64,000 nucleotides of DNA. Origin: Eledone cirrhosa (lineage: Eukaryota). How positions within the stretch are numbered: position 1 is the stretch's first letter; each line of letters begins with the position of its first letter. Under the pieces are notes generated by a model, which saw only the letters and a list, made by a program, of their open reading frames with translations, did not search any database and was not told where the DNA came from. Location of the stretch: positions 316,014,001 to 316,078,000 of the forward strand of contig OZ024743.1 in assembly GCA_964016885.1 (NCBI GenBank), read 5' to 3'. A program made the position numbers and the translations under genes. Shown piece by piece: positions 1-59,618 of this stretch.

Positions 1-27
1 GGCCAGCAATTATCCTAGTCCTAAGAA

Positions 28-170
28 TAGAGTTACGTCCCTTTAGAGTCTGAGTTTAAATCCCGCCGAGGTCAACTTTGCCTTTCACCCTTACGGCGAC
101 GATAAAATAAAGTACCAGTAATGCACTGAATTAATTGATGGCCTTGTTCCAAAAGTAGAAATAATTATTG
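28..170 (+). mobile_element. tRNA-derived SINE fragment (degenerate B box, body, 3' tail); one per unit, first copy shown
   Basis: GAGTTTAAATCCCGCCGAGGTCAACTTTGCCTTTCACCC...GATAAAATAAAGTACCAGT...GGCCTTGTTCCAAAAGTAGAAA is the reverse complement of the SINE copies at 60,493-60,903. It resembles an abundant octopus SINE (recalled, not searched). Confidence 0.8.
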
Positions 171-205
171 TATTAATAGTTTATATGACAGCCCCAGATA
201 CGTCT

Positions 206-279
206 GACCGGTTAGCTCAGTTGGTTAGAGCGTCGTGCTAATAACGCGAATGTCGTGGGTTCGAGCCCCATATTGGCCA
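206..279 (+). tRNA. trnI: tRNA-Ile(AAT), G2A variant
   Basis: 74-nt cloverleaf with anticodon arm TCGTG-CT AAT AA-CGCGA; A207 mismatches C71. Confidence 0.8.
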
Positions 280-287
280 TATTACGA

Positions 288-310
288 TTTGTTTTTTTTT
301 TTGTTTTTTT
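288..310 (+). terminator. Pol III oligo-T terminator downstream of tRNA-Ile (every unit, length-polymorphic)
   Basis: Long T runs begin ~10 nt after the discriminator base. Confidence 0.85.
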
Positions 311-439
311 CTATTAGGCTTTTAAACCTTTACCTTTTTAACTCAGTGAAGTATTTCAAGATAAAAATAATTTTGTTTTGATTTTTTTGAACATATAAGA
401 ATTTTTCTTGTTAAAATTTTCTTTTTAAATTTCATTATA

Positions 440-1085
440 TAAATCGTCGAAGTATTGGCACGAAGGGTATTCTTGTTTCGTGAACCTTGAAATAGCATAT
501 GGCTGCGTTCCACGGCCCCTGATGTTGCAGGTTCAGCAGGAGTTGGCGTTTATGTTCAGTTTCTTAATACCCTGAAGTCTTTAAACGAAAGTCCTAGTGT
601 TTGTGTTCGGATTAATGTTGTTAGTTAAAAACCATTCAATGTAGGTGTCTGACTCAGTTAAATGTGTACTTTCACCTCTCCAGTTCAATGTCTTCGTGGA
701 CAGCATTGACATTTATGACCGGGCTGGAAATGGTGACCGGATCAATTGGCTAAATTCGTCAGGCGGTGAACTCCGACATGCTCTTGATAGGTTTGCTGCC
801 GAGTGTTGCACGGCAGGAATGAAAATAAGTACTGCGAAGACTCAGATACTCCTCTTCTCAATGATATCTGCTCTGTGCACTCTATATGTGCATGAATTTT
901 CACTGAAGCAGAAGGTTGGATTATATGCACGTATTGTTAGAGCTGGTGCAATGATGCGCCAGCTTCAGCATTCGGTCTGAAGAAGGGACGTAGGTGTAAA
1001 ATCCGAACTCGCTATCTTCAATTCGGTATTCCTACCAGCTCTTACCTATGGCCATGAATCTTTGGTAATGACCAAAATAATATAA
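440..1085 (+). pseudogene. Degenerate RTE-clade (Rex3/Expander-like) LINE reverse transcriptase fragment; one per unit, first copy shown
   Basis: Hand translation gives CFVNLEIAYGCVPR (cf. CFVDLEKAYDRVPR), CVLSPLQFNVFVD (cf. QGCVLSPLLF), LRHALDRFAAECCTAGMKISTAKTE and FLPALTYGHESLVMT (cf. PTLTYGHELWVMT). It has stops and frameshifts, and the FADD motif is missing. Confidence 0.88.
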
Positions 1086-1467
1086 AAATGTGCCTCAAAC
1101 TAACAGATGTTCCTCGAGTCTAATGATCCACACCTAGCAAGCGCCGGCAAACCCGGATCATTTGGCATTTATTAAATTCCACGCATTGACCTGTACTTTG
1201 ACTAAGACCCACCCTACACTCACACTCCCCTGAGAACCCAAATGCAGAGATCACCAGTACACACCCCACTCTCCCACTCCTTACGTAGTGTATCCACCTA
1301 CTACCTACAATGTACCATCAACCAACCACTACACACCTGTGAGTTTCCTTTTACATTCTATACTTCCCATGTGTATAGGTGTAGATAGTCTTACGATCTT
1401 CTCTTCCCTAATTCTTGTATGGGTGTATGGATGTAGCATCTACATATGTGTGTGTGCATGTGTGAGT

Positions 1468-1516
1468 GACATTCGCGTTATTAACACGACGCTCTAACCA
1501 ACTGAGCTAACCGGGC
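1468..1516 (-). pseudogene. Inverted 5' half-copy (49 nt, positions 1-48) of tRNA-Ile(AAT): A box but no T arm or B box; 37 copies
   Basis: GACATTCGCGTTATTAACACGACGCTCTAACCAACTGAGCTAACCGG(C/G)C is the reverse complement of the tRNA 5' part with C32T. Copies start at 1468, 3033, 4615, 6196, 7779, 9357, 10937, 12515, 14094, 15673, 17253, 18832, 20411, 21990, 23570, 25148, 26727, 28305, 29884, 31463, 33042, 34620, 36199, 37777, 39356, 40934, 42512, 44090, 45669, 47247, 48826, 50404, 51982, 53560, 55138, 56717, 58294. Confidence 0.93.
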
Positions 1517-1833
1517 AGTTGGATCTGTTGCTGTCAGAATAAACTATTAATACAATAATTATTTGTACTTTTGGCACAAGGCCAGCAATTATCCTAGTCC
1601 TAAGAATAGAGTTACGTCCCTTTAGAGTCTGAGTTTAAATCCCGGCGAGGTCAACTTTGCCTTTCACCCTTACGGCGACGATAAAATAAAGTACCAGTAA
1701 TGCACTGGATTTATTGATGGCCTTGTTCCAAAAGTAGAAATAATTATTGTATTAATAGTTTATTTGACAGCCCCAGATACGTCTGGCCGGTTAGCTCAGT
1801 TGGTTAGAGCGTCTTGCTAATAACGCGAATGTC
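1468..1833. repeat. Inverted repeat, ~120-130-bp arms with ~105-130-bp spacer, at every unit junction (first shown)
   Basis: The left arm (half-tRNA + ATAAACTATTAATACAATAATTATTT(G/C)TACTTTTGGCACAAGGCCA) is complementary to the right arm (TGGCCTTGTTCCAAAAGTAGAAATAATTATTGTATTAATAGTTTAT + tRNA 1-48). Confidence 0.93.
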
Positions 1834-1858
1834 GTGGGTTCGAACCCCATATTGGCCA
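1785..1858 (+). tRNA. trnI: tRNA-Ile(AAT), G29T and G59A variant
   Basis: Cloverleaf with an anticodon-stem mismatch. Confidence 0.75.
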
Positions 1859-3349
1859 TATTACGGTTTGTTTTTTTTTTGTTTTTTTCTATTTGGCTTT
1901 TTAACTCAGTCAAGTATTTCTAGATAAAAATAATTTTGTTTTGATTTTTTTGAAAATATAAGAATTTTTCTTGTTAAAGTTTTCTTTTTAAATTTCATTA
2001 TATAAATCATCGAAGTATTGGCACGAAGGGTATTCTTGTTTCGTGAACCTTGAAATAGCATATGGCTGCGTTCCACGGCCCCTGATGTTGCAGGTTCAGC
2101 AGGAGTTGGCGTTTATGTTCAGTTTCTTAATACCCTGAAGTCTTTAAACGAAAGTCCTAGTGGTTGTGTTCGGATTAATGTTGTTAGTTAAAAACCATTC
2201 AATGTAGGTGTCTGACTCAGTTAAAAGTGTGTACTCTCACCTCTCCAGTTCAATGTCTTCGTGGACAGCATTGACAATTATGGCCGGGCTGGAAATGGTG
2301 ACCGGATCAATTGGCTAAATTCGTCAGGCGGTGATCTCTGACATGCTCTTGATAGGTTTGCTGCCCAGTGTTGCACGGCAGGAATGAAAATCAGTACTGC
2401 GAAGACTCAGATACTCCTCTTCTCAATGATATCTGCTCTGTGCTCTCTATATGTGCATGAATTTTCACTAAAGCAGAAGGTTGGATTATATGCACGTATT
2501 GTTAGAGCTGGTGCAATAATGCGCCAGCTTCAGCATTCGGTCTGAAGAAGGGAGGTAGGTGTAAAATCCGAACTCGCTATCTTCAATTCGGTATTCCTAC
2601 CAGCTCTTACCTATGGCCATGAATCTTTGGTAATGACCAAAATAATATAAAAATGTGCCTCAAACTAACAGATGTTCCTCGAGTCTAATGATCCACACCT
2701 AGCAAGCGCCGGCAAACCCGGATCATTTGGCATTTATTAAATTCCACGCATTGACCTGTACTTTGACTAAGACCCACCCTACACTCACACTCCCCTGAGA
2801 ACCCAAATGCAGAGATCACCAGTACACACCCCACTCTCCCACTCCTTACGTAGTGTATCCACCTACTACCTACAATGTACCATCAACCAACCACTACACA
2901 CCTGTGAGTTTCCTTTTACATACTATACTTCCCATGTGTATAGGTGTAGATAGTCTTACCATCTTCTCTTCCCTAATTCTTGTATGGGTGTATGGATGTA
3001 GCATCTACATATGTGTGTGTGCATGTGTGAGTGACATTCGCGTTATTAACACGACGCTCTAACCAACTGAGCTAACCGGGCAGTTGGATCTGTTGCTGTC
3101 AGAATAAACTATTAATACAATAATTATTTGTACTTTTGGCACAAGGCCAGCAATTATCCTAGTCCTAAGAATAGAGTTACGTCCCTTTAGAATCTGAGTT
3201 TAAATCCCACCGAGGTCAACTTTGCCTTTCACCCTTACGGCGACGATAAAATAAAGTACCAGTGATGCACTGAAATAATTGATGGCCTTGTTCCAAAAGT
3301 AGAAATAATTATTGTATTAATAGTTTATTAGACAGCCCCAGATACGTCT

Positions 3350-3423
3350 GGCCGGTTAGCTCAGTTGGTTAGAGCGTCGTGCTAATAACGCGAATGTCGT
3401 GGGTTCGAGCCCCATATTGACCA
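3350..3423 (+). tRNA. trnI: tRNA-Ile(AAT), G70A variant
   Basis: Ends ATTGACCA, giving a C3:A70 mismatch. Confidence 0.8.
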
Positions 3424-4932
3424 TATTACGATTTTGTTTTTTTTGTTTTTTTCTATTAGGCTTTTAAACCTTTACCTTTTTAACTCAGTCAAGTATTTCT
3501 AGATAAAAATAATTTTGTTTTGATTTTTTTGAAAATATAAGAATTTTTCTTGTTAAAGTTTTCTTTTTAAATTTCATTATATAAATCGTCGAAGTATTGG
3601 CACGAAGGGTATTCTTGTTTCGTGAACCTTGAAATAGCATATGGCTGCGTTCCACGGCCCCTGATGTTGCAGGTTCAGCAGGAGTTGGCGTTTATGTTCA
3701 GTTTCTTAATACCCTGAAGTCTTTAAACGAAAGTCCTAGTGTTTGTGTTCGGATTAATTAATGTTGTTAGTTAAAAACCATTCAATGTAGGTGTCTGACT
3801 CAGTTAAAAGTGTGTACTTTCACCTCTCCAGTTCAATGTCTTCGTGGACAGCATTGACATTTATGGCCGGGCTGGAAATGGTGACCGGATCAATTGGCTA
3901 AATTCGTCAGGCGGTGATCTCTGACATGCTCTTGATAGGTTTGCTGCCGAGTGTTGCACGGCAGGAATGAAAATCAGTACTGCGAAGACTCAGATACTCC
4001 TCTTCTCAATGATATCTGCTCTGTGCACTCTATATGTGCATGAATTTTCACTAAAGCAGAAGGTTGGATTATATGCACGTATTGTTAGAGCTGGTGCAAT
4101 AATGCGCCAGCTTCAGCATTCGGTCTGAAGAAGGGAGGTAGGTGTAAAATCCGAACTCGCTATCTTCAATTCGGTATTCCTACCAGCTCTTACCTATGGC
4201 CATGAATCTTTGGTAATGACCAAAATAATATAAAAATGTGCCTCAAACTAACAGATGTTCCTCGAGTCTAATGATCCACACCTAGCAAGCGCCGGCAAAC
4301 CCGGATCATTTGGCACTTATTAAACCCACGCATTGACCTGTGCTCTGACTAAGCCACACCCTACACTCACACTCCCCTGGGAACCCAAATGCAGAGATCC
4401 CGAGTTCACACCCCACTCTCCCACTTCTTTCTTAGTGTATCCACCTACTACCTACAATGTACCATCAACCAACCACTACACACCTGTGAGTTTCCTTTTA
4501 CATACTATACTTCCCATGTGTATAGGTGTAGATAGTCTTACCATCTTCTCTTCCCTAATTCTTGTATGGGTGTATGGATGTAGCATCTACATATGTGTGT
4601 GTGCATGTGTGAGTGACATTCGCGTTATTAACACGACGCTCTAACCAACTGAGCTAACCGGCCAGTTGGATCTGTTGCTGTCAGAATAAACTATTAATAC
4701 AATAATTATTTCTACTTTTGGCACAAGGCCAGCAATTATCCTAGTCCTAAGAATAGAGTTACGTCCCTTTAGAGTCTGAGTTTAAATCCCGCCGAGGTCA
4801 ACTTTGCCTTTCACCCTTACGGCGACGATAAAATAAAGTACCAGTGATGCACTGTAATAATTGATGGCCTTGTTCCAAAAGTAGAAATAATTATTGTATT
4901 AATAGTTTATTTTGACAGCGTGACGTGCGTCT

Positions 4933-5006
4933 GGCCGGTTAGCTCAGTTGGTTAGAGCGTCGTGCTAATAACGCGAATGTCGTGGGTTCGAGCCCCATAT
5001 TGGTCA
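4933..5006 (+). tRNA. trnI: tRNA-Ile(AAT), C71T variant
   Basis: Ends ATTGGTCA, giving a G2:U71 wobble. Confidence 0.85.
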
Positions 5007-6512
5007 TATTACGATTTTTTTTTTTTTTTTTTTTTTCTATTAGGCTTTTAAACCTTTACCTTTTTAACTCAGTCAAGTATTTCTAGATAAAAATAATTTT
5101 GTTTTGATTTTTTTGAAAATATAAGAATTTTTCTTGTTAAAGTTTTCTTTTTAAATTTCATTATATAAATCGTCGAAGTATTGGCACGAAGGGTATTCTT
5201 GTTTCGTGAACCTTGAAATAGCATATGGCTGCGTTCCACGGCCCCTGATGTTGCAGGTTCAGCAGGAGTTGGCGTTTATGTTCAGTTTCTTAATACCCTG
5301 AATTCTTTAAACGAAAGTCCTAGTGTTTCTGTTCGGATTAATGTTGTTAGTTAAAAACCATTCAATGTAGGTGTCTGACGCAGTTAAAAGTGTGTACTTT
5401 CACCTCTCCAGTTCAATGTCTTCGTGGACAGCATTGACATTTATGGCCGGGCTGGAAATGGTGACCGGATCAATTGGCTAAATTCGTCAGGCGGTGAACT
5501 CCGACATGCTCTTGATAGGTTTGCTGCCGAGTGTTGCACGGCAGGAATGAAAATAAGTACTGCGAAGACTCAGATACTCCTCTTCTCAATGATATCTGCT
5601 CTGTGCACTCTATATGTGCATGAATTTTCACTGAAGCAGAAGGTTGGATTATATGCACGTATTGTTAGAGCTGGTGCAATAATGCGCCAGCTTCAGCATT
5701 CGGTCTGAAGAAGGGAGGTAGGTGTAAAATCCGAACTCGCTATCTTCAATTCGGTATTCCTACCAGCTCTTACCTATGGCCATGAATCTTTGGTAATGAC
5801 CAAAATAATATAAAAATGTGCCTCAAACTAACAGATGTTCCTCGAGTCTAATGATCCACACCTAGCAAGCGCCGGCAAACCCGGATCATTTGGCATTTAT
5901 TAAATTCCACGCATTGACCTGTACTTTGACTAAGACCCACCCTACACTCACACTCCCCTGGGAACCCAAATGCAGAGATGACGAGTACACACCCCACTCT
6001 CCCACTCCTTACCTAGTGTATCCACCTACTACCTACAATGTACCATCAACCAACCACTACACACCTGTGAGTTTCCTTTTACATACTATACTTCCCATGT
6101 GTATAGGTGTAGATAGTCTTACGATCTTCTCTTCCCTAATTCTTGTATGGGTGTATGGATGTAGCATCTACATATGTGTGTGTGCATGTGTGAGTGACAT
6201 TCGCGTTATTAACACGACGCTCTAACCAACTGAGCTAACCGGCCAGTTGGATCTGTTGCTGTCTAAATAAACTATTAATACAATAAGTATTTCTACTTTT
6301 GGCACAAGGCCAGCAATTATCCTAGTCCTAAGAATAGAGTTACGTCCCTTTAGAGTCTGAGTTTAAATCCCGCCGAGGTCAACTTTGCCTTTCACCCTTA
6401 CGGCGACGATAAAATAAAGTACCAGTAATGCACTGGAATAATTGATGGCCTTGTTCCAAAAGTAGAAATAATTATTGTATTAATAGTTTATTTGACAGCC
6501 CCAGATACGTCT

Positions 6513-6586
6513 GGCCGGTTAGCTCAGTTGGTTAGAGCGTCGTGCTAATAACGCGAATGTCGTGGGTTCGAGCCCCATATTGGCCA
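6513..6586 (+). tRNA. trnI: tRNA-Ile(AAT), array consensus
   Basis: GGCCGGTTAGCTCAGTTGGTTAGAGCGTCGTGCTAATAACGCGAATGTCGTGGGTTCGAGCCCCATATTGGCCA: all four stems pair, A box TAGCTCAGTTGG, B box GGTTCGAGCCC, and the U30:G40 pair typical of eukaryotic Ile(IAU). Confidence 0.95.
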
Positions 6587-8095
6587 TATTACGATTTTGT
6601 TTTTTTTGTTTTTTTCTATTAGGCTTTTAAACCTTTACCTTTTTAACTCAGTCAAGTATTTCTAGATAAAAATAATTTTGTTTTGATTTTTTTGAAAATA
6701 TAAGAATTTTTCTTGTTAAAGTTTTCTTTTTAAATTTCATTATATAAATCGTCGAAGTATTGGCACGAAGGGTATTCTTGTTTCGTGAACCTTGAAATAG
6801 CATATGGCTGCGTTCCACGGCCCCTGATGTTGCAGGTTCAGCAGGAGTTGGCGTTTATGTTCAGTTTCTTAATACCCTGAAGTCTTTAAACGAAAGTCCT
6901 AGTGTTTGTGTTCGGATTAATTAATGTTGTTAGTTAAAAACCATTCAATGTAGGTGTCTGACTCAGTTAAAAGTGTGTACTTTCACCTCTCCAGTTCAAT
7001 GTCTTCGTGGACAGCATTGACATTTATGGCCGGGCTGGAAATGGTGACCGGATCAATTGGCTAAATTCGTCAGGCGGTGATCTCTGACATGCTCTTGATA
7101 GGTTTGCTGCCGAGTGTTGCACGGCAGGAATGAAAATCAGTACTGCGAAGACTCAGATACTCCTCTTCTCAATGATATCTGCTCTGTGCACTCTATATGT
7201 GCATGAATTTTCACTAAAGCAGAAGGTTGGATTATATGCACGTATTGTTAGAGCTGGTGCAATAATGCGCCAGCTTCAGCATTCGGTCTGAAGAAGAGAG
7301 GTAGGTGTAAAATCCGAACTCGCTATCTTCAATTCGGTATTCCTACCAGCTCTTACCTATGGCCATGAATCTTTGGTAATGACCAAAATAATATAAAAAT
7401 GTGCCTCAAACTAACAGATGTTCCTCGAGTCTAATGATCCACACCTAGCAAGCGCCGGCAAACCCGGATCATTTGGCATTTATTAAATCCCACGCATTGA
7501 CCTGTACTTTGACTAAGACCCACCCTACACTCACACTCCCCTGGGAACCCAAATGCAGAGATGACGAGTACACACCCCACTCTCCCACTTCTTCCTTAGT
7601 GTATCCACCTACTACCTACAATGTACCATCAACCAACCACTACACACCTGTGAGTTTCCTTTTACATACTATACTTCCCATGTGTATAGGTGTAGATAAT
7701 CTTACGATCTTCTCTTCCCTAATTCTTGTATGGGTGTATGGATGTAGCATCTACATATGTGTGTGTGCATGTGTGAGTGACATTCGCGTTATTAACACGA
7801 CGCTCTAACCAACTGAGCTAACCGGCCAGTTGGATCTGTTGCTGTCAGAATAAACTATTAATACAATAATTATTTCTACTTTTGGCACAAGGCCAGCAAT
7901 TATCCTAGTCCTAAGAATAGAGTTACGTCCCTTTAGAGTCTGAGTTTAAATCCCGCCGAGGTCAACTTTGCCTTTCACCCTTACGGCGACGATAAAATAA
8001 AGTACCAGTAATGCACTGGATTAATTGATGGCCTTGTTCCAAAAGTAAAAATAATTATTGTATTAATAGTTTATTTGACAGCTCCAGATACGTCT

Positions 8096-8169
8096 GGCCG
8101 GTTAGCTCAGTTGGTTAGAGCGTCATGCTAATAACGCGAATGTCGTGGGTTCGAGCCCCATATTGGCCA
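8096..8169 (+). tRNA. trnI: tRNA-Ile(AAT), G29A variant
   Basis: A8125 gives an A29:C41 mismatch. Confidence 0.8.
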
Positions 8170-9674
8170 TTTTACGATTTTTTTTTTTTTTTTTTTTCTA
8201 TTAGGCTTTTAAACCTTTACCTTTTTAACTCAGTGAAGTATTTCAAGATAAAGATAATTTTGTTTTGATTTTTTTGAACATATAAGAATTTTTCTTGTTA
8301 AAGTTTTCTTTTTAAATTTCATTATATAAATCGTCGAAGTATTGGCACGAAGGGTATTCTTGTTTCGTGAACCTTGAAATAGCATATGGCTGCGTTCCAC
8401 GGCCCCTGATGTTGCAGGTTCAGCAGGAGTTGGCGTTTATGTTCAGTTTCTTAATACCCTGAAGTCTTTAAACGAAAGTCCTAGTGTTTGTGTTCGGATT
8501 AATGTTGTTAGTTAAAAACCATTCAATGTAGGTGTCTGACTCAGTTAAAAGTGTGTACTTTCACCTCTCCAGTTCAATGTCTTCGTGGACAGCATTGACA
8601 TTTATGGCCGGGCTGGAAATGGTGACCGGATCAATTGGCTAAATTCGTCAGGCGGTGATCTCTGACATGCTCTTGATAGGTTTGCTGCCGAGTGTTGCAC
8701 GGCAGGAATGAAAATCAGTACTGCGAAGACTGAGATACTCATCTTCTCAATGATATCTGCTCTGTGCACTCTATATGTGCATGAATTTTCACTAAAGCAG
8801 AAGGTTGGATTATATGCACGTATTGTTAGAGCTGGTGCAATAATGCGCCAGCTTCAGCATTCGGTCTGAAGAAGGGAGGTAGGTGTAAAATCCGAACTCG
8901 CTATCTTCAATTCGGTATTCCTACCAGCTCTTACCTATGGCCATGAATCTTTGGTAATGACCAAAATAATATAAAAATGTGCCTCAAACTAACAGATGTT
9001 CCTCGAGTCTAATGATCCACACCTAGCAAGCGCCGGCAAACCCGGATCATTTGGCATTTATTAAATCCCACGCATTGACCTGTACTGTGACTAAGACCCA
9101 CCCTACACTCACACTCCCCTGGGAACCCAAATGCAGAGATCACGAGTACACACCCCACTCTCCCACTTCTTCCTTAGTGTATCCACCTACTACCTACAAT
9201 GTACCATCAACCAACCACTACACACCTGTGAGTTTCCTTTTACATTCTATACTTCCCATGTGTATAGGTGTAGATAGTCTTACGATCTTCTCTTCCCTAA
9301 TTCTTGTATGGGTGTATGGATGTAGCATCTACATATGTGTGTGTGCATGTGTGAGTGACATTCGCGTTATTAACACGACGCTCTAACCAACTGAGCTAAC
9401 CGGCCAGTTGGATCTGTTGCTGTCAGAATAAACTATTAATACAATAATTATTTGTACTTTTGGCACAAGGCCAGCAATTATCCTAGTCCTAAGAATAGAG
9501 TTACGTCCCTTTAGAGTCTGAGTTTAAACCCCGCCGAGGTCAACTTTGCCTTTCGCCCTTCACGGCGACGATAAAATAAAGTACCAGTAATGCACTGAAA
9601 TAATTGATGGCCTTGTTCCAAAAGTAGAAATAATTATTGTATTAATAGTTTATTTGACAGCCCCAGATACGTCT

Positions 9675-9748
9675 GGCCGGTTAGCTCAGTTGGTTAGAGC
9701 GTCGTGCTAATAACGCGAATGTCGTGGGTTCGAGCCCCATATTGGCCA
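9675..9748 (+). tRNA. trnI: tRNA-Ile(AAT)
   Basis: Consensus copy. Confidence 0.95.
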
Positions 9749-11253: not shown

Positions 11254-11327
11254 GGCCGGTTAGCTCAGTTGGTTAGAGCGTCGTGCTAATAACGCGAATG
11301 TCGTGGGTTCGAGCCCCATATTGGCCA
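11254..11327 (+). tRNA. trnI: tRNA-Ile(AAT)
   Basis: Consensus copy. Confidence 0.95.
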
Positions 11328-12831: not shown

Positions 12832-12905
12832 GGCCGGTTAGCTCAGTTGGTTAGAGCGTCGTGCTAATAACGCGAATGTCGTGGGTTCGAGCCCCATATT
12901 GGCCA
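12832..12905 (+). tRNA. trnI: tRNA-Ile(AAT)
   Basis: Consensus copy. Confidence 0.95.
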
Positions 12906-14410: not shown

Positions 14411-14484
14411 GGCCGGTTAGCTCAGTTGGTTAGAGCGTCATGCTAATAACGCGAATGTCGTGGGTTCGAGCCCCATATTGGCCA
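14411..14484 (+). tRNA. trnI: tRNA-Ile(AAT), G29A variant
   Basis: GTCATGCT in the anticodon stem. Confidence 0.8.
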
Positions 14485-44406: not shown

Positions 44407-44480
44407 GGCCGGTTAGCTCACTTGGTTAGAGCGTCGTGCTAATAACGCGAATGTCGTGGGTTCGAGCCCCATATTGGCCA
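44407..44480 (+). tRNA. trnI: tRNA-Ile(AAT), G15C variant
   Basis: TAGCTCACTTGG. Confidence 0.75.
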
Positions 44481-45985: not shown

Positions 45986-46059
45986 GGCCGGTTAGCTCGG
46001 TTGGTTAGAGCGTCGTGCTAATAACGCGAATGTCGTGGGTTCGAGCCCCATATTGGCCA
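45986..46059 (+). tRNA. trnI: tRNA-Ile(AAT), A14G variant
   Basis: TAGCTCGGTTGG; the invariant A14 is lost. Confidence 0.72.
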
Positions 46060-47563: not shown

Positions 47564-47637
47564 GGCCGGTTAGCTCACTTGGTTAGAGCGTCGTGCTAAT
47601 AACGCGAATGTCGTGGGTTCGAGCCCCATATTGGCCA
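47564..47637 (+). tRNA. trnI: tRNA-Ile(AAT), G15C variant
   Basis: TAGCTCACTTGG. Confidence 0.75.
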
Positions 47638-49142: not shown

Positions 49143-49216
49143 GGCCGGTTAGCTCAGTTGGTTAGAGCGTCGTGCTAATAACGCGAATGTCGTGGGTTCG
49201 AGCCCCATATTGGCCA
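49143..49216 (+). tRNA. trnI: tRNA-Ile(AAT)
   Basis: Consensus copy. Confidence 0.95.
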
Positions 49217-50720
49217 TATTACGATTTGTTTTTTTTTGTTTTTTTCTATTAGGCTTTTAAACCTTTACCTTTTTAACTCAGTCAAGTATTTCTAGATAGA
49301 AATAATTTTGTTTTGATTTTTTTGAAAATATAAGAATTTTTCTTGTTAAAGTTTTCTTTTTAAATTTCATTATATAAATCGTCGAAGTATTGGCACGAAG
49401 GGTATTCTTGTTTCGTGAACCTTGAAATAGCATATGGCTGTGTTCCACGGCCCCTGATGTTGCAGGTTCAGCAGGAGTTGGCGTTTATGTTCAGTTTCTT
49501 AATACCCTGAAGTCTTTAAACGAAAGTCCTAGTGTTTCTGTTCGGATTAATGTTGTTAGTTAAAAACCATTCAATGTAGGTGTCTGATTCAGTTAAAAGT
49601 GTGTACTTTCACCTCTCCAGTTCAATGTCTTCGTGGACAGCATTGACATTTATGGCCGGGCTGGAAATGGTGACCGGATCAATTGGCTAAATTCGTCAGG
49701 CGGTGAACTCCGACATGCACGTGATAGGTTTGCTGCCGAATGCTGCACGGCAGGAATGAAAATAAGTACTGCGAAGACTGAGATACTCATCTTCTCAATG
49801 ATATCTGCTCTGTGCACTCTATATGTGCATGAATTTTCACTGAAGCAGAAGGTTGGATTATATGCACGTATTGTTAGAGCTGGTGCAATAATGCGCCAGC
49901 TTCAGCATTCGGTCTGAAGAAGGGAGGTAGGTGTAAAATCCGAACTCGCTATCTTCAATTCGGCATTCCTACCTGCTCTTACCTATGGCCATGAATCTTT
50001 GGTAATGACCAAAATAATATAAAAATGTGCCTCAAACTAACAGATGTTCCTCGAGTCTAATGATCCACACCTAGCAAGCGCCGGCAAACCCGGATCATTT
50101 GGCACTTATTAAACCCACGCATTGACCTGTGCTCTGACTAAGCCCCACCCTACACTCACACTCCCCTGGGAACCCAAATGCAGAGATCCCGAGTTCACAC
50201 CCCACTCTCCCACTTCTTCCTTAGTGTATCCACCTACTACCTACAATGTACCATCAACCAACCACTACACACCGGTGAGTTTCCTTTTACATTCTATACT
50301 TCCCATGTGTATAGGTGTAGATAGTCTTACGATCTTCTCTTCCCTAATTCTTGTATGGGTGTAAGGATGTAGCATCTACATATGTGTGTGTGCATGTGTG
50401 AGTGACATTCGCGTTATTAACACGACGCTCTAACCAACTGAGCTAACCGGCCAGTTGGATCTGTTGCTGTCTAAATAAACTATTAATACAATAATTATTT
50501 CTACTTTTGGCACAAGGCCAGCAATTATCGTAGTCCTAAGAATAGAGTTACGTCCCTTTAGAGTCTGAGTTTAAATCCCGCCGAGGTCAACTTAGCCTTT
50601 CACCCTTACGGCGACGATAAAATAAAGTACCAGTAATGCACTGGATTCATTGATGGCCTTGTTCCAAAAGTAGAAATAATTATTGTATTAATAGTTTATT
50701 TGACATCCCCAGATACGTCT

Positions 50721-50794
50721 GGCCGGTTAGCTCAGTTGGTTAGAGCGTCGTGCTAATAACGCGAATGTCGTGGGTTCGAGCCCCATATTGGCCA
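50721..50794 (+). tRNA. trnI: tRNA-Ile(AAT)
   Basis: Consensus copy. Confidence 0.95.
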
Positions 50795-52298
50795 TATTAC
50801 GATTTGTTTTTTTTTTGTTTTTTTCTATTAGGCTTTTAAACCTTTACCTTTTTAACTCAGTCAAGTATTTCTAGATAAAAATAATTTTGTTTTGATTTTT
50901 TTGAAAATATAAGAATTTTTCTTGTTAAAGTTTTCTTTTTAAATTTCATTATATAAATCGTCGAAGTATTGGCACGAAGGGTATTCTTGTTTCGTGAACC
51001 TTGAAATAGCATATGGCTGCGTTCCACGGCCCCTGATGTTGCAGGTTCAGCAGGAGTTGGCGTTTATGTTCAGTTTCTTAATACCCTGAAGTCTTTAAAC
51101 GAAAGTCCTAGTGTTTGTGTTCGGATTAATGTTGTTAGTTAAAAACCATTCAATGTAGGTGTCTGACTCAGTTAAAAGTGTGTACTTTCACCTCTCCAGT
51201 TCAATGTCTTCGTGGACAGCATTGACATTTATGGCCGGGCTGGAAATGGTGACCGGATCAATTGGCTAAATTCGTCAGGCGGTGAACTCCGACATGCACG
51301 TGATAGGTTTGCTGCCGAATGCTGCACGGCAGGAATGAAAATAAGTACTGCGAAGACTGAGATACTCATCTTCTCAATGATATCTGCTCTGTGCACTCTA
51401 TATGTGCATGAATTTTCACTGAAGCAGAAGGTTGGATTATATGCACGTATTGTTAGAGCTGGTGCAATAATGCGCCAGCTTCAGCATTCGGTCTGAAGAA
51501 GGGAGGTAGGTGTAAAATCCAAACTCGCTATCTTCAATTCGGCATTCCTACCAGCTCTTACCTATGGCCATGAATCTTTGGTAATGACCAAAATAATATA
51601 AAAATGTGCCTCAAACTAACAGATGTTCCTCGAGTCTAATGATCCACACCTAGCAAGCGCCGGCAAACCCGGATCATTTGGCACTTATTAAACCCACGCA
51701 TTGACCTGTGCTCTGACTAATCCCCACCCTACACTCACACTCCCCTGAGAACCCAAATGCCGAGATCCCGAGTTCACACCCACTCTCCCACTTCTTCCTT
51801 AGTGTATCCACCTACTACCTACAATGTACCATCAACCAACCACTACACACCTGTGAGTTTCCTTTTACATACTATACTTCCCATGTGTATAGGTGTAGAT
51901 AGTCTTACGATCTTCTCTTCCCTAATTCTTGTATGGGTGTATGGATGTAGCATCTACATATGTGTGTGTGCATGTGTGAGTGACATTCGCGTTATTAACA
52001 CGACGCTCTAACCAACTGTGCTAACCGGCCAGTTGGATCTGTTGCTGTCAGAATAAACTACTAATACAATAATTATTTCTACTTTTGGCACAAGGCCAGC
52101 AATTATCGTAGTCCTAAGAATAGAGTTACGTCCCTTTAGAGTCTGAGTTTAAATCCCGCCGAAGTCAACTTTGCCTTTCACCCTTACGGCGACGATAAAA
52201 TAAAGTACCAGTGATGCACTGAAATAATTGATGGCCTTGTTCCAAAAGTAGAAATAATTATTATATTAATAGTTTATTTGACATCCCCAGATACGTCT

Positions 52299-52372
52299 GG
52301 CCGGTTAGCTCAGTTGGTTAGAGCGTCGTGCTAATAACGCGAATGTCGTGGGTTCGAGCCCCATATTGGCCA
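52299..52372 (+). tRNA. trnI: tRNA-Ile(AAT)
   Basis: Consensus copy. Confidence 0.95.
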
Positions 52373-53876
52373 TATTACGATTTGTTTTTTTTTGTTTTTT
52401 TCTATTAGGCTTTTAAACCTTTACCTTTTTAACTCAGTCAAGTATTTCTAGATAGAAATAATTTTGTTTTGATTTTTTTGAAAATATAAGAATTTTTCTT
52501 GTTAAAGTTTTCTTTTTAAATTTCATTATATAAATCGTCGAAGTATTGGCACGAAGGGTATTCTTGTTTCGTGAACCTTGAAATAGCATATGGCTGTGTT
52601 CCACGGCCCCTGATGTTGCAGGTTCAGCAGGAGTTGGCGTTTATGTTCAGTTTCTTAATACCCTGAAGTCTTTAAACGAAAGTCCTAGTGTTTCTGTTCG
52701 GATTAATGTTGTTAGTTAAAAACCATTCAATGTAGGTGTCTGATTCAGTTAAAAGTGTGTACTTTCACCTCTCCAGTTCAATGTCTTCGTGGACAGCATT
52801 GACATTTATGGCCGGGCTGGAAATGGTGACCGGATCAATTGGCTAAATTCGTCAGGCGGTGAACTCCGACATGCACGTGATAGGTTTGCTGCCGAATGCT
52901 GCACGGCAGGAATGAAAATAAGTACTGCGAAGACTGAGATACTCATCTTCTCAATGATATCTGCTCTGTGCACTCTATATGTGCATGAATTTTCACTGAA
53001 GCAGAAGGTTGGATTATATGCACGTATTGTTAGAGCTGGTGCAATAATGCGCCAGCTTCAGCATTCGGTCTGAAGAAGGGAGGTAGGTGTAAAATCCGAA
53101 CTCGCTATCTTCAATTCGGCATTCCTACCTGCTCTTACCTATGGCCATGAATCTTTGGTAATGACCAAAATAATATAAAAATGTGCCTCAAACTAACAGA
53201 TGTTCCTCGAGTCTAATGATCCACACCTAGCAAGCGCCGGCAAACCCGGATCATTTGGCACTTATTAAACCCACGCATTGACCTGTGCTCTGACTAAGCC
53301 CCACCCTACACTCACACTCCCCTGGGAACCCAAATGCAGAGATCCCGAGTTCACACCCCACTCTCCCACTTCTTCCTTAGTGTATCCACCTACTACCTAC
53401 AATGTACCATCAACCAACCACTACACACCGGTGAGTTTCCTTTTACATTCTATACTTCCCATGTGTATAGGTGTAGATAGTCTTACGATCTTCTCTTCCC
53501 TAATTCTTGTATGGGTGTAAGGATGTAGCATCTACATATGTGTGTGTGCATGTGTGAGTGACATTCGCGTTATTAACACGACGCTCTAACCAACTGAGCT
53601 AACCGGCCAGTTGGATCTGTTGCTGTCAGAATAAACTACTAATACAATAATTATTTCTACTTTTGGCACAAGGCCAGCAATTATCCTAGTCCTAAGAATA
53701 GAGTTACGTCCCTTTAGAGTCTGAGTTTAAATCCCGCCGAAGTCAACTTTGCCTTTCACCCTTACGGCGACGATAAAATAAAGTACCAGTGATGCACTGA
53801 AATAATTGATGGCCTTGTTCCAAAAGTAGAAATAATTATTGTATTAATAGTTTATTTGACATCCCCAGATACGTCT

Positions 53877-53950
53877 GGCCGGTTAGCTCAGTTGGTTAGA
53901 GCGTCGTGCTAATAACGCGAATGTCGTGGGTTCGAGCCCCATATTGGCCA
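53877..53950 (+). tRNA. trnI: tRNA-Ile(AAT)
   Basis: Consensus copy. Confidence 0.95.
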
Positions 53951-55454
53951 TATTACGATTTGTTTTTTTTTGTTTTTTTCTATTAGGCTTTTAAACCTTT
54001 ACCTTTTTAACTCAGTCAAGTATTTCTAGATAGAAATAATTTTGTTTTGATTTTTTTGAAAATATAAGAATTTTTCTTGTTAAAGTTTTCTTTTTAAATT
54101 TCATTATATAAATCGTCGAAGTATTGGCACGAAGGGTATTCTTGTTTCGTGAACCTTGAAATAGCATATGGCTGTGTTCCACGGCCCCTGATGTTGCAGG
54201 TTCAGCAGGAGTTGGCGTTTATGTTCAGTTTCTTAATACCCTGAAGTCTTTAAACGAAAGTCCTAGTGTTTCTGTTCGGATTAATGTTGTTAGTTAAAAA
54301 CCATTCAATGTAGGTGTCTGATTCAGTTAAAAGTGTGTACTTTCACCTCTCCAGTTCAATGTCTTCGTGGACAGCATTGACATTTATGGCCGGGCTGGAA
54401 ATGGTGACCGGATCAATTGGCTAAATTCGTCAGGCGGTGAACTCCGACATGCACGTGATAGGTTTGCTGCCGAATGCTGCACGGCAGGAATGAAAATAAG
54501 TACTGCGAAGACTGAGATACTCATCTTCTCAATGATATCTGCTCTGTGCACTCTATATGTGCATGAATTTTCACTGAAGCAGAAGGTTGGATTATATGCA
54601 CGTATTGTTAGAGCTGGTGCAATAATGCGCCAGCTTCAGCATTCGGTCTGAAGAAGGGAGGTAGGTGTAAAATCCGAACTCGCTATCTTCAATTCGGCAT
54701 TCCTACCTGCTCTTACCTATGGCCATGAATCTTTGGTAATGACCAAAATAATATAAAAATGTGCCTCAAACTAACAGATGTTCCTCGAGTCTAATGATCC
54801 ACACCTAGCAAGCGCCGGCAAACCCGGATCATTTGGCACTTATTAAACCCACGCATTGACCTGTGCTCTGACTAAGCCCCACCCTACACTCACACTCCCC
54901 TGGGAACCCAAATGCAGAGATCCCGAGTTCACACCCCACTCTCCCACTTCTTCCTTAGTGTATCCACCTACTACCTACAATGTACCATCAACCAACCACT
55001 ACACACCGGTGAGTTTCCTTTTACATTCTATACTTCCCATGTGTATAGGTGTAGATAGTCTTACGATCTTCTCTTCCCTAATTCTTGTATGGGTGTAAGG
55101 ATGTAGCATCTACATATGTGTGTGTGCATGTGTGAGTGACATTCGCGTTATTAACACGACGCTCTAACCAACTGAGCTAACCGGCCAGTTGGATCTGTTG
55201 CTGTCTAAATAAACTATTAATACAATAATTATTTCTACTTTTGGCACAAGGCCAGCAATTATCGTAGTCCTAAGAATAGAGTTACGTCCCTTTAGAGTCT
55301 GAGTTTAAATCCCGCCGAGGTCAACTTAGCCTTTCACCCTTACGGCGACGATAAAATAAAGTACCAGTAATGCACTGGATTCATTGATGGCCTTGTTCCA
55401 AAAGTAGAAATAATTATTGTATTAATAGTTTATTTGACATCCCCAGATACGTCT

Positions 55455-55528
55455 GGCCGGTTAGCTCAGTTGGTTAGAGCGTCGTGCTAATAACGCGAAT
55501 GTCGTGGGTTCGAGCCCCATATTGGCCA
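55455..55528 (+). tRNA. trnI: tRNA-Ile(AAT)
   Basis: Consensus copy. Confidence 0.95.
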
Positions 55529-57033
55529 TATTACGATTTGTTTTTTTTTTGTTTTTTTCTATTAGGCTTTTAAACCTTTACCTTTTTAACTCAGTCAAGT
55601 ATTTCTAGATAAAAATAATTTTGTTTTGATTTTTTTGAAAATATAAGAATTTTTCTTGTTAAAGTTTTCTTTTTAAATTTCATTATATAAATCGTCGAAG
55701 TATTGGCACGAAGGGTATTCTTGTTTCGTGAACCTTGAAATAGCATATGGCTGCGTTCCACGGCCCCTGATGTTGCAGGTTCAGCAGGAGTTGGCGTTTA
55801 TGTTCAGTTTCTTAATACCCTGAAGTCTTTAAACGAAAGTCCTAGTGTTTGTGTTCGGATTAATGTTGTTAGTTAAAAACCATTCAATGTAGGTGTCTGA
55901 CTCAGTTAAAAGTGTGTACTTTCACCTCTCCAGTTCAATGTCTTCGTGGACAGCATTGACATTTATGGCCGGGCTGGAAATGGTGACCGGATCAATTGGC
56001 TAAATTCGTCAGGCGGTGAACTCCGACATGCACGTGATAGGTTTGCTGCCGAATGCTGCACGGCAGGAATGAAAATAAGTACTGCGAAGACTGAGATACT
56101 CATCTTCTCAATGATATCTGCTCTGTGCACTCTATATGTGCATGAATTTTCACTGAAGCAGAAGGTTGGATTATATGCACGTATTGTTAGAGCTGGTGCA
56201 ATAATGCGCCAGCTTCAGCATTCGGTCTGAAGAAGGGAGGTAGGTGTAAAATCCAAACTCGCTATCTTCAATTCGGCATTCCTACCAGCTCTTACCTATG
56301 GCCATGAATCTTTGGTAATGACCAAAATAATATAAAAATGTGCCTCAAACTAACAGATGTTCCTCGAGTCTAATGATCCACACCTAGCAAGCGCCGGCAA
56401 ACCCGGATCATTTGGCACTTATTAAACCCTCGCATTGACCTGTGCTCTGACTAATCCCCACCCTACACTCACACTCCCCTGGGAACCCAAATGCAGAGAT
56501 CCCGAGTTCACACCCCACTCTCCCACTTCTTCCTTAGTGTATCCACCTACTACCTACAATGTACCATCAACCAACCACTACACACCTGTGAGTTTCCTTT
56601 TACATACTATACTTCCCATGTGTATAGGTGTAGATAGTCTTACCATCTTCTCTTCCCTAATTCTTGTATGGGTGTATGGATGTAGCATCTACATATGTGT
56701 GTGTGCATGTGTGAGTGACATTCGCGTTATTAACACGACGCTCTAACCAACTGTGCTAACCGGCCAGTTGGATCTGTTGCTGTCAGAATAAACTACTAAT
56801 ACAATAATTATTTCTACTTTTGGCACAAGGCCAGCAATTATCCTAGTCCTAAGAATAGAGTTACGTCCCTTTAGAGTCTGAGTTTAAATCCCGCCGAGGT
56901 CAACTTTGCCTTTCACCCTTACGGCGACGATAAAATAAAGTACCAGTGATGCACTGAAATAATTGATGGCCTTGTTCCAAAAGTAGAAATAATTATTGTA
57001 TTAATAGTTTATTTGACATCCCCAGATACGTCT

Positions 57034-57107
57034 GGCCGGTTAGCTCAGTTGGTTAGAGCGTCGTGCTAATAACGCGAATGTCGTGGGTTCGAGCCCCATA
57101 TTGGCCA
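57034..57107 (+). tRNA. trnI: tRNA-Ile(AAT)
   Basis: Consensus copy. Confidence 0.95.
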
Positions 57108-58610
57108 TATTACGATTTGTTTTTTTTTGTTTTTTTCTATTAGGCTTTTAAACCTTTACCTTTTTAACTCAGTCAAGTATTTCTAGATAGAAATAATTTT
57201 GTTTTGATTTTTTTGAAAATATAAGAATTTTTCTTGTTAAAGTTTTCTTTTTAAATTTCATTATATAAATCGTCGAAGTATTGGCACGAAGGGTATTCTT
57301 GTTTCGTGAACCTTGAAATAGCATATGGCTGTGTTCCACGGCCCCTGATGTTGCAGGTTCAGCAGGAGTTGGCGTTTATGTTCAGTTTCTTAATACCCTG
57401 ATGTCTTTAAACGAAAGTCCTAGTGTTTCTGTTCGGATTAATGTTGTTAGTTAAAAACCATTCAATGTAGGTGTCTGACTCAGTTAAAAGTGTGTACTTT
57501 CACCTCTCCAGTTCAATGTCTTCGTGGACAGCATTGACATTTATGGCCGGGCTGGAAATGGTGACCGGATCAATTGGCTAAATTCGTCAGGCGGTGAACT
57601 CCGACATGCACGTGATAGGTTTGCTGCCGAATGCTGCACGGCAGGAATGAAAATAAGTACTGCGAAGACTGAGATACTCATCTTCTCAATGATATCTGCT
57701 CTGTGCACTCTATATGTGCATGAATTTTCACTGAAGCAGAAGGTTGGATTATATGCACGTATTGTTAGAGCTGGTGCAATAATGCGCCAGCTTCAGCATT
57801 CGGTCTGAAGAAGGGAGGTAGGTGTAAAATCCGAACTCGCTATCTTCAATTCGGCATTCCTACCAGCTCTTACCTATGGCCATGAATCTTTGGTAATGAC
57901 CAAAATAATATAAAAATGTGCCTCAAACTAACAGATGTTCCTCGAGTCTAATGATCCACACCTAGCAAGCGCCGGCAAACCCGGATCATTTGGCACTTAT
58001 TAAACCCCCGCATTGACCTGTGCTCTGACTAAGCCCCACCCTACACTCACACTCCCCTGGGAACCCAAATGCCGAGATCCCGAGTTCACACCCACTCTCC
58101 CACTTCTTCCTTAGTGTATCCACCTACTACCTACAATGTACCATCAACCAACCACTACACACCTGTGAGTTTCCTTTTACATACTATACTTCCCATGTGT
58201 ATAGGTGTAGATAGTCTTACCATCTTCTCTTCCCTAATTCTTGTATGGGTGTATGGATGTAGCATCTACATATGTGTGTGTGCATGTGTGTGTGACATTC
58301 GCGTTATTAACACGACGCTCTAACCAACTGAGCTAACCGCCCAGTTGGATCTGTTGCTGTCTAAATAAACTATTAATACAATAATTATTTCTACTTTTGG
58401 CACAAGGCCAGCAATTATCCTAGTCTTAAGAATAGAGTTACGTCCCTTTAGAGTCTGAGTTTAAATCCCGCCGAGGTCAACTTTGCCTTTCACCCTTACG
58501 GCGACGATAAAATAAAGTACCAGTGATGCACTGAAATAATTGATGGCCTTGTTCCAAAAGTAGAAATAATTATTGTATTAATAGTTTATTTGACAGCTCC
58601 AGATACGTCT

Positions 58611-58684
58611 GGCCGGTTAGCTCAGTTGGTTAGAGCGTCGTGCTAATAACGCGAATGTCGTGGGTTCGAGCCCCATATTGGCCA
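58611..58684 (+). tRNA. trnI: tRNA-Ile(AAT)
   Basis: Consensus copy. Confidence 0.95.
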
Positions 58685-59380
58685 TATTACTTTTTTTTTT
58701 TTTTTTTTTGTTTTTTTTCTATCTGGCTTTTAAACCTTTACCTTTTTAACAAAGTGAAGTATTTCTAGATAAAAATAATTTTGTTTTGATTTTTTTGAAC
58801 ATATAAGAATTTTTCTTGTTAATGGTTTCTTTTTAAATCTCATTATATAAATCGTCGAAGTATTGGCACGAAGGGTATTCTTGTTTCGTGAACCTTGAAA
58901 ATGCATAGGGCTGCGTTCCACGGCCCCTGATGTTGCAGGTTCAGCAGGAGTTGGCGTTTATGTTCAGTTTCTTAATACCCTGAAGTCTTTAAACGAAAGT
59001 CCTAGTGTTTGTGTTCGGATAAATGTTGTTAGTTAAAAACCATTCAATGTAGGTGTCTGACTCAGTTAAATGTGTGTACTCTCACCTCTCCAGTTCAATG
59101 TCTTCGTGGACAGCATTGACATTTATGGCCGGGCTGGGAATGGTGACCGGATCAATTGGCTAAATTCGTCAGGCGGTGATCTCCGACATGCTCTTGATAG
59201 GTTTGCTGCCGGGTGTTGCACGGCAGGAATGAAAATCAGTACTGCGAAGACTCAGATACTCATCTTCTCAATGATATCTGCTCTGTGCACTCTATATGTG
59301 CATGAATATTCACTGAAGCAGAAGGTTGGATTATATGCACGTATTGTTAGAGCTGGTGCAAGAATGCGCCAGATCCATCT

Positions 59381-59454
59381 GGCCGGTTAGCTCTGTTGGT
59401 TAGAGCGTCGTGCTAATAACGCGAATGTCGTGGTTTCGAGCCCCGTATTGACCA
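59381..59454 (+). pseudogene. Diverged terminal tRNA-Ile(AAT), probable pseudogene
   Basis: A14T, G53T (B box), A64G and G70A relative to the array consensus; most of the upstream flank is deleted. Confidence 0.78.
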
Positions 59455-59618
59455 TATTACTATTTTTTTTTTTTTATTAGGCTTTTAAACCTTTACCGTT
59501 TTAACTCAGTGAAGTATTTCGAGATAAAAACGATTACGTTTTAATTTTTAAAATTGAAAAATATGTGTGTGCATGTATGATACACGTAGGCGTGTGTGTA
59601 CAGACCATTTTATATAAA

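What the first reader, a model, noticed from the sequence alone, without database searches (positions are those of the whole stretch)
1..59560. tRNA-Ile macrosatellite whose unit fuses a tRNA gene, an antisense half-tRNA, a SINE piece and a dead RTE RT
Seen: ~38 near-identical 1.58-kb units give 39 tRNA-Ile copies of a single isodecoder in 59 kb. Established: tandem tRNA arrays are known in several eukaryotes. Inference: this unit was assembled from transposon debris around one tRNA gene and then amplified. The consensus folds fully and has a T50:A64 pair where the vertebrate Ile-AAT sequence I recall has C:G, so it looks like a real gene, and the array could be a copy-number-variable dosage locus for the inosine-34 Ile tRNA.
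Basis: partly seen in the sequence, partly recalled or inferred. Interest (0 to 1): 0.72.

Follow-up and report, generated by a model that had tools for sequence, protein, structure and literature searches.

The report
Tandem isoleucine tRNA gene array
This is a real run of 54 near-identical 1.58-kb repeats, each with one isoleucine tRNA gene plus scraps of old mobile elements, lying among other tRNA gene arrays; it likely grew by ordinary tandem duplication and its genes are likely transcribed, so it is a new example of a known kind of locus.

Summary
The array is real and larger than reported: 54 units over about 85 kb, 16 of them upstream of the window. It is one block of a tRNA gene island of at least 375 kb, which also holds a second Ile-AAT array (55 units of 1.5 kb) and a Ser array of more than 100 kb. 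This array has 47 of 111 genome-wide matches to the gene's 3' half; its neighbour has 51.

T50:A64 is shared by this genome's other Ile-AAT genes; the array's own mark is G6·U67. The 'antisense half-tRNA' is one arm of a 131-bp inverted duplication, lacks a B box and varies at background rate. The SINE and RT pieces are decayed passengers.

Differences among units point to active genes: the 20 bases upstream carry 8 mutation events against 2.4 expected. The neighbour array shows the same excess beside its two better copies but not its degenerate one. Transcription and copy-number variation were not measured. The closest known locus is the human 1q23.3 tRNA repeat. This scan noted similar Met, Val and Pro arrays elsewhere in this genome.

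The parts
1..59370 (+). Tandem array of 1.58-kb units: 37 full and 1 partial unit in the window; it continues about 25.7 kb upstream to G000:C4:315,988,273, 54 unit starts in all
24..169 (+). 5'-truncated copy of a high-copy SINE (unit 1 shown); mean 84.5%, best 89.4% identity to 51 long hits in non-array loci
186..205 (+). Inner 5' flank of the gene; 8 mutation events among 53 units against 2.4 expected
206..279 (+). tRNA-Ile(AAT) gene (unit 1 shown; repeated every ~1579 bp to 58611). Majority form has G5·U68 and G6·U67, A73 and no intron
280..435 (+). 3' flank: T-run starting 9-16 bases after the gene in 5 of 5 units inspected (likely Pol III terminator), then AT-rich sequence
   Evidence: terminator role inferred
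440..1085 (+). Decayed fragment of a non-LTR reverse transcriptase gene with stops and internal deletions; 64-71% identical to dispersed copies; RTE-like
1090..1468 (.). Unassigned low-copy spacer; not the 3' end of the Penelope-like family found at the array's left edge
1469..1516 (-). Antisense 5' piece of the tRNA gene (bases 1-48, U at position 32 in 37 of 37 copies, no B box)
1469..1833 (.). Inverted repeat across the unit junction: arms about 1469-1599 and 1704-1833 (SINE tail, 5' flank and tRNA bases 1-48), 91.6% alike over 131 bp, about 100-bp spacer of SINE body
23886..23959 (+). Copy with the anticodon changed to AAC (Val) on the Ile body, plus C13U
25260..36310 (+). Block duplication: window units 17-19 are identical to units 21-23
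37889..52093 (+). Block duplication: window units 25-27 are identical to units 31-33
59381..59454 (+). Terminal damaged Ile-AAT copy (4 changes), joined directly to the broken RT piece through a 4-base microhomology; right end of the array

Best explanation
This is a tandem array of 54 copies of a 1.58-kb segment carrying one tRNA-Ile(AAT) gene, likely amplified by unequal crossing-over and gene conversion from one slice of an older isoleucine tRNA cluster, with genes that are likely transcribed by RNA polymerase III and transposon pieces that are likely passengers. Inferred order of events: (1) an RT fragment decayed near an Ile gene; (2) a SINE inserted about 40 bases upstream of the gene; (3) the SINE tail, flank and first 48 bases of the gene were duplicated head to head, leaving an antisense stub; (4) the gene took on C67U; (5) the segment was amplified and has since been shuffled between units. 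The array would add to the Ile-AAT pool alongside a second array of similar weight. Its size likely drifts rather than being tuned.
For: Shown, amplification: divergence rises with distance between units (Spearman 0.53), 953 of 2211 site pairs show all four allele combinations, and 7 of 1378 unit pairs are identical, 6 of them in two 3-unit blocks. Shown, context: a second Ile array (55 units, 157 Ile-like calls), 13 scattered tRNA-like calls between the arrays (11 called Ile) and a Ser array with 21-28 genes per 10 kb over 100 kb; tandemly duplicated Thr clusters at 2 of 13 other tRNA loci sampled. Shown, gene quality: cloverleaf is the minimum-energy fold, 62 bits, T-run downstream. Indirect, activity: the inner 5' flank has 8 events against 2.4 expected (P=0.003) and the gene 17 against 8.8 (P=0.009), while the outer flank has 2 against 1.9, the B-box-less antisense stub 6 against 5.6 and its flank 4 against 2.3. 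The neighbour array repeats this: 8 vs 2.8 and 8 vs 2.4 beside its two better copies, 2 vs 2.7 beside its degenerate copy. PMC6130373 (passages) reports this flank excess for active tRNA genes. Indirect, selection: 0 of 17 variant alleles in the gene reach 6 of 53 units, against 59 of 188 elsewhere; mean distance to the majority is 0.8% in the gene and 1.4% outside. Order: both arms share a change absent from the SINE family, so they come from one insertion; identities run RT 64-71%, SINE 84-89%, arms 92%, units 98%.
Against: Transcription is inferred from mutation patterns, not measured. 20 of 53 gene copies carry a stem mismatch or a changed conserved base, so selection per copy is weak. The frequency test depends on the cut-off (P=0.07, 0.004, 0.008 at 4, 6, 8 copies), sites are linked, and 13% of 74-bp background windows also lack common alleles. 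0.4% of background 20-bp windows reach 8 events. The flank changes are not mainly C-to-T or G-to-A, the signature named in PMC6130373: 1 of 8 events here. Gene conversion from other Ile genes could add flank variants; the one 5-base event had no exact donor among the flanks printed. The neighbour array amplifies a degenerate copy in each unit, so amplification by itself says nothing about function.
Confidence: 0.7

Rival explanations
1. The array is a selected, stage-restricted dosage locus. The U67 isodecoder is made in bulk in oocytes or early embryos, like the clustered maternal tRNA genes of zebrafish, while scattered C67 genes serve the soma.
For: 47 of 49 genome-wide U67 matches lie in this array, so it could be regulated as a unit. 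PMC11417395 (passages) reports that maternally deposited zebrafish tRNAs come from repetitive clusters and later ones from isolated genes. Mutations passed between units are germline events, so the flank excess fits germline transcription.
Against: U67 also occurs in 2 isolated genes with unrelated flanks. 20 of 53 copies are damaged. Ser and Thr genes are arrayed too. PMC2886086 (abstract) concludes that an Arabidopsis tRNA array likely fluctuates by neutral drift.
Confidence: 0.13
2. The array is an inert satellite: a slightly weakened tRNA copy swept up in an amplification and silenced, with no contribution to the tRNA pool.
For: The gene differs from the common form by C67U, which gives two adjacent G·U pairs and costs 2.4 kcal/mol in the fold. 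Many copies are damaged. The neighbour array amplifies a degenerate copy.
Against: The flank and gene mutation excess is absent from the antisense stub and from the neighbour's degenerate copy. No gene variant has spread beyond 5 of 53 units. The score drops only from 64.3 to 62 bits.
Confidence: 0.12
3. The array is largely an assembly expansion of a few real copies.
For: Two 3-unit blocks are exact duplicates and could be local over-assembly of up to about 7 units.
Against: Units differ by 2.1% on average with mosaic haplotypes, and only 7 of 1378 pairs are identical. In run X1, contigs covering the unit have word depth 297-405 while joined contigs of the dispersed RT family have 4-12. The tool warns that this is not a copy number, and X1 may be the assembled sample.
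Confidence: 0.03

Closest known systems
Human 1q23.3 tRNA variable-number tandem repeat (PMC4041453; abstract and passages)
   Same: Head-to-tail units about 98% identical, tens of copies (9-43 there, 54 here), tRNA genes in every unit, and each unit also carries a partial LINE and another transposon fragment.
   Different: The human unit is 7.3 kb, GC-rich, holds five tRNA genes of four kinds and binds CTCF; copy-number variation and transcription were shown. Here the unit is 1.58 kb and 41% GC, with one gene plus an inverted stub; variation and transcription were not measured.
Arabidopsis chromosome 1 tRNA triplet array (PMC2886086; abstract and outline)
   Same: Local tandem amplification of tRNA genes; modelled as unequal crossing-over with concerted evolution and neutral drift in copy number.
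   Different: Three genes per unit and 27 units; the abstract mentions no transposon pieces or inverted stub.
Zebrafish chromosome 4 tRNA clusters (PMC11417395; passages)
   Same: Most tRNA genes sit in repetitive, transposon-rich clusters, with a few isolated copies elsewhere.
   Different: Maternal expression of clustered isodecoders was observed there; no stage data exist here.
Transcription-associated mutagenesis at tRNA genes (PMC6130373; passages)
   Same: [quoted passage not shown]
   Different: Measured there between species and individuals; here it is read from copies within one array, with the antisense stub and a degenerate copy as internal controls, and without the C-to-T / G-to-A bias.

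Membership tests
Tandem tRNA gene array / tRNA VNTR (1q23.3 type) | Head-to-tail kilobase units of about 98% identity in tens of copies | tested here: met
   54 unit starts, mean divergence 2.1% over 53 full units
Tandem tRNA gene array / tRNA VNTR (1q23.3 type) | A tRNA gene in each unit | tested here: met
   55 ARAGORN calls in the array zone, 54 Ile and 1 Val
Tandem tRNA gene array / tRNA VNTR (1q23.3 type) | Copy number differs between individuals | not testable with these tools
   Three RAD-seq runs give only 1-3 reads over unit-specific sequence: presence, not number
Tandem tRNA gene array / tRNA VNTR (1q23.3 type) | Genes are transcribed | tested here: inconclusive
   Indirect only: flank mutation excess with internal controls
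Functional cytosolic tRNA-Ile(AAU) gene | Cloverleaf, AAT anticodon, A73, covariance score above cut-off | tested here: met
   Majority form: 62 bits against a cut-off of 29; cloverleaf is the minimum-energy fold at 10, 20 and 37 C. 29 of 53 copies are identical to it and 4 more keep all pairs
Functional cytosolic tRNA-Ile(AAU) gene | Internal A and B boxes and a downstream T-run | tested here: met
   Boxes read from the sequence against recalled consensus motifs; T-run in 5 of 5 units inspected
Functional cytosolic tRNA-Ile(AAU) gene | Mature, inosine-modified, charged tRNA | not testable with these tools
   Needs tRNA-seq and a charging assay
RTE-clade LINE | Reverse transcriptase domain | tested here: met
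   The unit piece alone has no RVT_1 hit; 2 of 2 dispersed relatives hit RVT_1 above the cut-off
RTE-clade LINE | AP endonuclease and RT in one ORF of about 1000 aa; groups with reference RTE elements in a tree | tested here: inconclusive
   Many best homologs are 950-1060 aa with endonuclease plus RT, and the named ones are mostly from fish. This fits RTE (Rex3/Expander, a recalled label); no tree with reference elements was built
tRNA-derived SINE | Short, high-copy, dispersed, with a shared 3' end and a Pol III-type head | tested here: met
   98 hits in 54 non-array loci (518 kb) with shared ends; full copies extend about 35 bases further 5' than the unit's piece. Family name not determined; box motifs recalled
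Site-specific retroelement of tRNA arrays | Intact element, with family members inserted at a fixed place beside tRNA genes | tested here: not met
   The RT piece is broken, and its relatives are scattered genome-wide (6263 candidates, 150 scored, 96 of them outside the array)

The most novel reading that the evidence does not exclude
Each unit is a self-limiting tRNA cassette. Read-through transcription across the 131-bp inverted repeat would fold into a long hairpin covering the tRNA's 5' half and be cut into small RNAs matching nearly every Ile-AAT gene in the genome, so the array would both supply and restrain this tRNA, perhaps in the germline. The hairpin forms in a single-strand DNA fold and the stub differs from the gene at 1 of 48 bases. 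That is not fewer than drift allows (P=0.16), and the stub varies at background rate among units.
Probability: 0.04. Interest if true: 0.75.

Novelty: new member of a known kind. Interest (0 to 1): 0.3.

Why it matters
As a locus it is ordinary: tandem tRNA arrays with transposon scraps in the unit are described in humans, and this genome arrays several tRNA types.

Two points have modest value. First, differences among units of a single assembly seem enough to tell working from dead tRNA copies: the flank excess follows gene quality in 3 of 3 better genes and is absent in 2 of 2 dead ones. That would be a cheap activity test for animals without tRNA-seq. Second, the array-linked U67 base makes 47 of 49 matching copies traceable in sequencing data, so the question of whether clustered tRNA genes are maternal outside fish is directly testable here.

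Tried and rejected
Penelope 3' end in the unit: I first read unit bases 1150-1465 as the 3' end of the Penelope-like element at the left edge. 0 of 11 dispersed copies of that family match it, so this is rejected and the stretch is unassigned. A genome search gave 103 candidates, and the 40 scored were all in the array.

T50:A64 as an array-specific mark: rejected.

Antisense half as an independent tRNA insertion or conserved RNA: rejected. It is part of a longer inverted arm, Rfam finds nothing there at E up to 1, and it varies at background rate.

Gene more conserved than the rest of the unit by count of variable sites: not so, 23 per 100 bases against 14 for the whole unit. Only the frequencies are lower.

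Pfam gave no relevant hit for the unit's RT piece or for 4 Penelope-like frames. The Penelope label rests on homologs with PF26215 and recalled motifs.

Tandem Repeats Finder cannot see the unit (period limit 500). The Rfam tRNA search of the genome scored only 63 of 552,091 candidates, so no genome-wide tRNA census was made.

Sequencing runs: no RNA holder listed. Reads were laid only on the non-tRNA part of a unit, so U67 in other individuals is untested, and RAD-seq depth was too low for copy number.

A metagenome pattern scan returned 51 loci that were not analysed and are not used, so whether other animals share this gene body is left open.

Rows dropped: the last partial unit from all unit alignments; 3 of 55 units of the neighbour array with aberrant length.

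Literature: searches listed no paper on nuclear tRNA arrays in cephalopods or on an inverted tRNA stub in an array unit. Only listings were seen, and subscription journals are not covered. No supplements were read. The organism was not determined.
Full report
1. Observation. The window holds 38 starts of a 1.58-kb unit: 37 full units of 1565-1583 bp and a last partial one. Mean pairwise divergence is 1.9%, and 7 pairs are identical. ARAGORN tRNA genes, 37 Ile-AAT and 1 Val-AAC; a 39th, damaged copy lies at 59381. Of the 39 copies, 24 are identical and there are 10 distinct sequences. An antisense 5' piece of the gene is present 37 times.

2. True extent and setting. The window is G000:C4:316,014,001-316,078,000 in a 3.0-Gb genome. 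The array continues upstream to about 315,988,273: 54 unit starts, about 85 kb. On the left it abuts a high-copy retroelement (65,837 candidates; the 149 other scored matches are 90-94% identical) that looks Penelope-like (homologs with PF26215; label partly recalled). On the right, the RT piece breaks off and joins a damaged Ile gene through a 4-base microhomology. Upstream lie 13 scattered tRNA-like calls on both strands, 11 called Ile, and then a second Ile-AAT array on the minus strand. That array has 55 units of about 1495 bp and 157 Ile-like calls, three per unit: one intact, one weakened and one degenerate. Its unit shares with ours only the tRNA and a short flank. Downstream is a Ser cluster from about 316,088,000, with 21-28 Ser-AGA calls per 10 kb in 10 of 10 bins to 316,248,000 and none in 7 of 7 samples from 316,290,000 on. 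The island is thus at least 375 kb. Two of 13 other tRNA loci sampled are tandemly duplicated Thr clusters. Earlier unchecked notes of this scan describe Met, Val and Pro arrays in the same genome.

3. Share of Ile-AAT genes. Two exact patterns for the gene's 3' half give 49 matches with U67 and 62 with C67. This array holds 47 of the 49. The neighbour array holds 51 of the 62, four more are scattered in the cluster and seven lie elsewhere. So this array has 47 of 111 (42%) and the two arrays together 98 of 111. A 5'-half pattern gives 128 matches, 52 of them in this array by the sequences. These counts miss diverged copies. T50:A64 is present in the intact Ile-AAT genes on other contigs as well. 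The array's own mark is C67U, which puts G6·U67 next to G5·U68. It costs 2.4 kcal/mol, leaves the cloverleaf as the best fold and lowers the Rfam score from 64.3 to 62 bits. Two isolated genes with unrelated flanks also have U67, so it is probably tolerated (inference).

4. Anatomy of the unit. Bases 24-169 are a 5'-truncated SINE: 98 hits in 518 kb of non-array DNA, mean 84.5% identity over 51 long hits. Bases 206-279 are the gene, followed by a T-run 9-16 bases later. Bases 440-1085 are a broken RT fragment, 64-71% identical to dispersed copies. Two of those copies hit Pfam RVT_1, and their best homologs are largely ~1000-aa endonuclease-plus-RT proteins; this fits RTE, but no tree was built. 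Bases 1090-1468 are unassigned. The antisense half (gene bases 1-48) is the outer end of a 131-bp inverted repeat, 91.6% alike, that also copies the 5' flank and the SINE tail. Both arms share a change that the SINE family lacks, so one SINE-plus-gene segment was duplicated head to head (inference). The stub has no B box.

5. How it grew. Over 53 full units the mean divergence is 2.1%. It rises with distance (Spearman 0.53), haplotypes are mosaic (953 of 2211 site pairs show four combinations), and two 3-unit blocks are exact repeats at 4- and 6-unit offsets. This is what unequal crossing-over with gene conversion gives, the model proposed for the Arabidopsis tRNA array (PMC2886086, abstract). 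Mosaic 2% divergence argues against an assembly expansion, although the exact blocks (up to about 7 units) could be one. In run X1 the unit's contigs have word depth 297-405 against 4-12 for joined contigs of the dispersed RT family; this is suggestive only, and X1 may be the assembled sample. In three RAD-seq runs from another study most reads come from the dispersed RT family (83 of 93, 111 of 114 and 74 of 78 fit only partly). A few reads cover unit-specific sequence: 2-3 deep across the flank-RT junction in X7, and 1-2 deep over the unassigned spacer in X5. The unit therefore exists in other individuals, at unknown number.

6. Are the genes working? No direct data. Indirect test: active tRNA genes have a hypervariable 20-base 5' flank and excess rare variants (PMC6130373, passages). 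With clustered changes merged and rates corrected for GC, the inner 5' flank has 8 events against 2.4 expected (P=0.003), the gene 17 against 8.8 (P=0.009), the inner 3' flank 3 against 1.0 (P=0.08) and the outer flank 2 against 1.9. The antisense stub has 6 against 5.6 and its flank 4 against 2.3. In the neighbour array (52 of 55 units) the inner 5' flanks give 8 vs 2.8 (intact copy), 8 vs 2.4 (weakened) and 2 vs 2.7 (degenerate). Between the two inverted arms, 6 of 11 flank differences fall in the 21 bases next to the gene (P=0.04). In the gene no variant reaches 6 of 53 units (0 of 17, against 59 of 188 outside). Against this: the result depends on the cut-off (P=0.07 to 0.004), sites are linked, 13% of background windows also lack common alleles, only 1 of 8 flank events is C-to-T or G-to-A, and 20 of 53 copies are damaged (14 stem mismatches, 6 conserved bases). 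I read this as transcribed genes under weak, shared selection.

7. Comparison with what is known. The human 1q23.3 tRNA repeat has 9-43 units of 98% identity, each with a partial LINE and a MER fragment (PMC4041453, passages), so transposon debris in a tRNA repeat unit is described. Zebrafish keeps most tRNA genes in repetitive clusters, and maternal tRNAs come from them (PMC11417395, passages), which supplies the main rival. RTE LINEs, SINEs and Penelope-like elements are all recently active in an octopus genome (PMC13282606, passages); the organism here was not determined. Searches listed no paper on such arrays in cephalopods or on an inverted stub in an array unit (listings only).

8. Verdict. 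A real, ordinary tandem tRNA gene array: a new member of a known kind, one of several in this island and genome. The fused look of the unit reflects the history of the slice that was amplified, not a designed composite. The useful points are the internal-control evidence for activity and the traceable U67 base. Interest 0.3.

Noticed in passing
G000:C4:315,869,700-315,952,000 (loci L016-L022, L028-L030), minus strand: Second Ile-AAT tandem array: 55 units of about 1495 bp, each with an intact, a weakened (U25, U61) and a degenerate copy; mean divergence 1.9%.
   Followed up: partly
G000:C4:316,088,000 to at least 316,248,000 (L024-L025, L036-L039, L065-L074): Ser tRNA cluster turning into a dense array of about 317-bp repeats. 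AGA, TGA and CGA anticodons occur on one body at its start; 236 genome-wide matches to one Ser-AGA pattern.
   Followed up: partly
window 23886-23959: One array copy has anticodon AAC (Val) on the Ile body, plus C13U; a possible isoacceptor switch or a dead copy.
   Followed up: no
L013:5133-5199 (first unit of the array): The first full unit alone carries a 64-bp SINE tail close to the family sequence, likely inserted after amplification.
   Followed up: partly
L013:3450-4262 and window 62368-64000 (minus strand): Penelope-like retroelement pieces lie near both ends of the array. The left one belongs to a very large family (65,837 candidates) and is cut in its 3' end at the array's edge; the right one is frameshifted.
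   Followed up: partly
window 4900-4931: One unit has five clustered changes in the gene's 5' flank, with no exact donor among the flanks printed.
   Followed up: partly
L079, L080 (G000:C1:243,650,001-243,682,000): Thr tRNA cluster with 16-18 genes per 10 kb and kilobase tandem duplications.
   Followed up: no
L083, L084, L085, L088, L089, L090 (also L081, L086): Six of the 13 top Rfam tRNA loci sampled are isolated Ala-GGC calls, and others are Val-GAC and Thr-GGT. G34 anticodons are unusual in animals (recalled), so these may be a tRNA-derived repeat family.
   Followed up: no
L040-L041 (G000:C4:217,662,000-217,671,000): A separate small cluster of about 12 decayed Ile-derived copies whose flanks resemble those of this cluster.
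   Followed up: no
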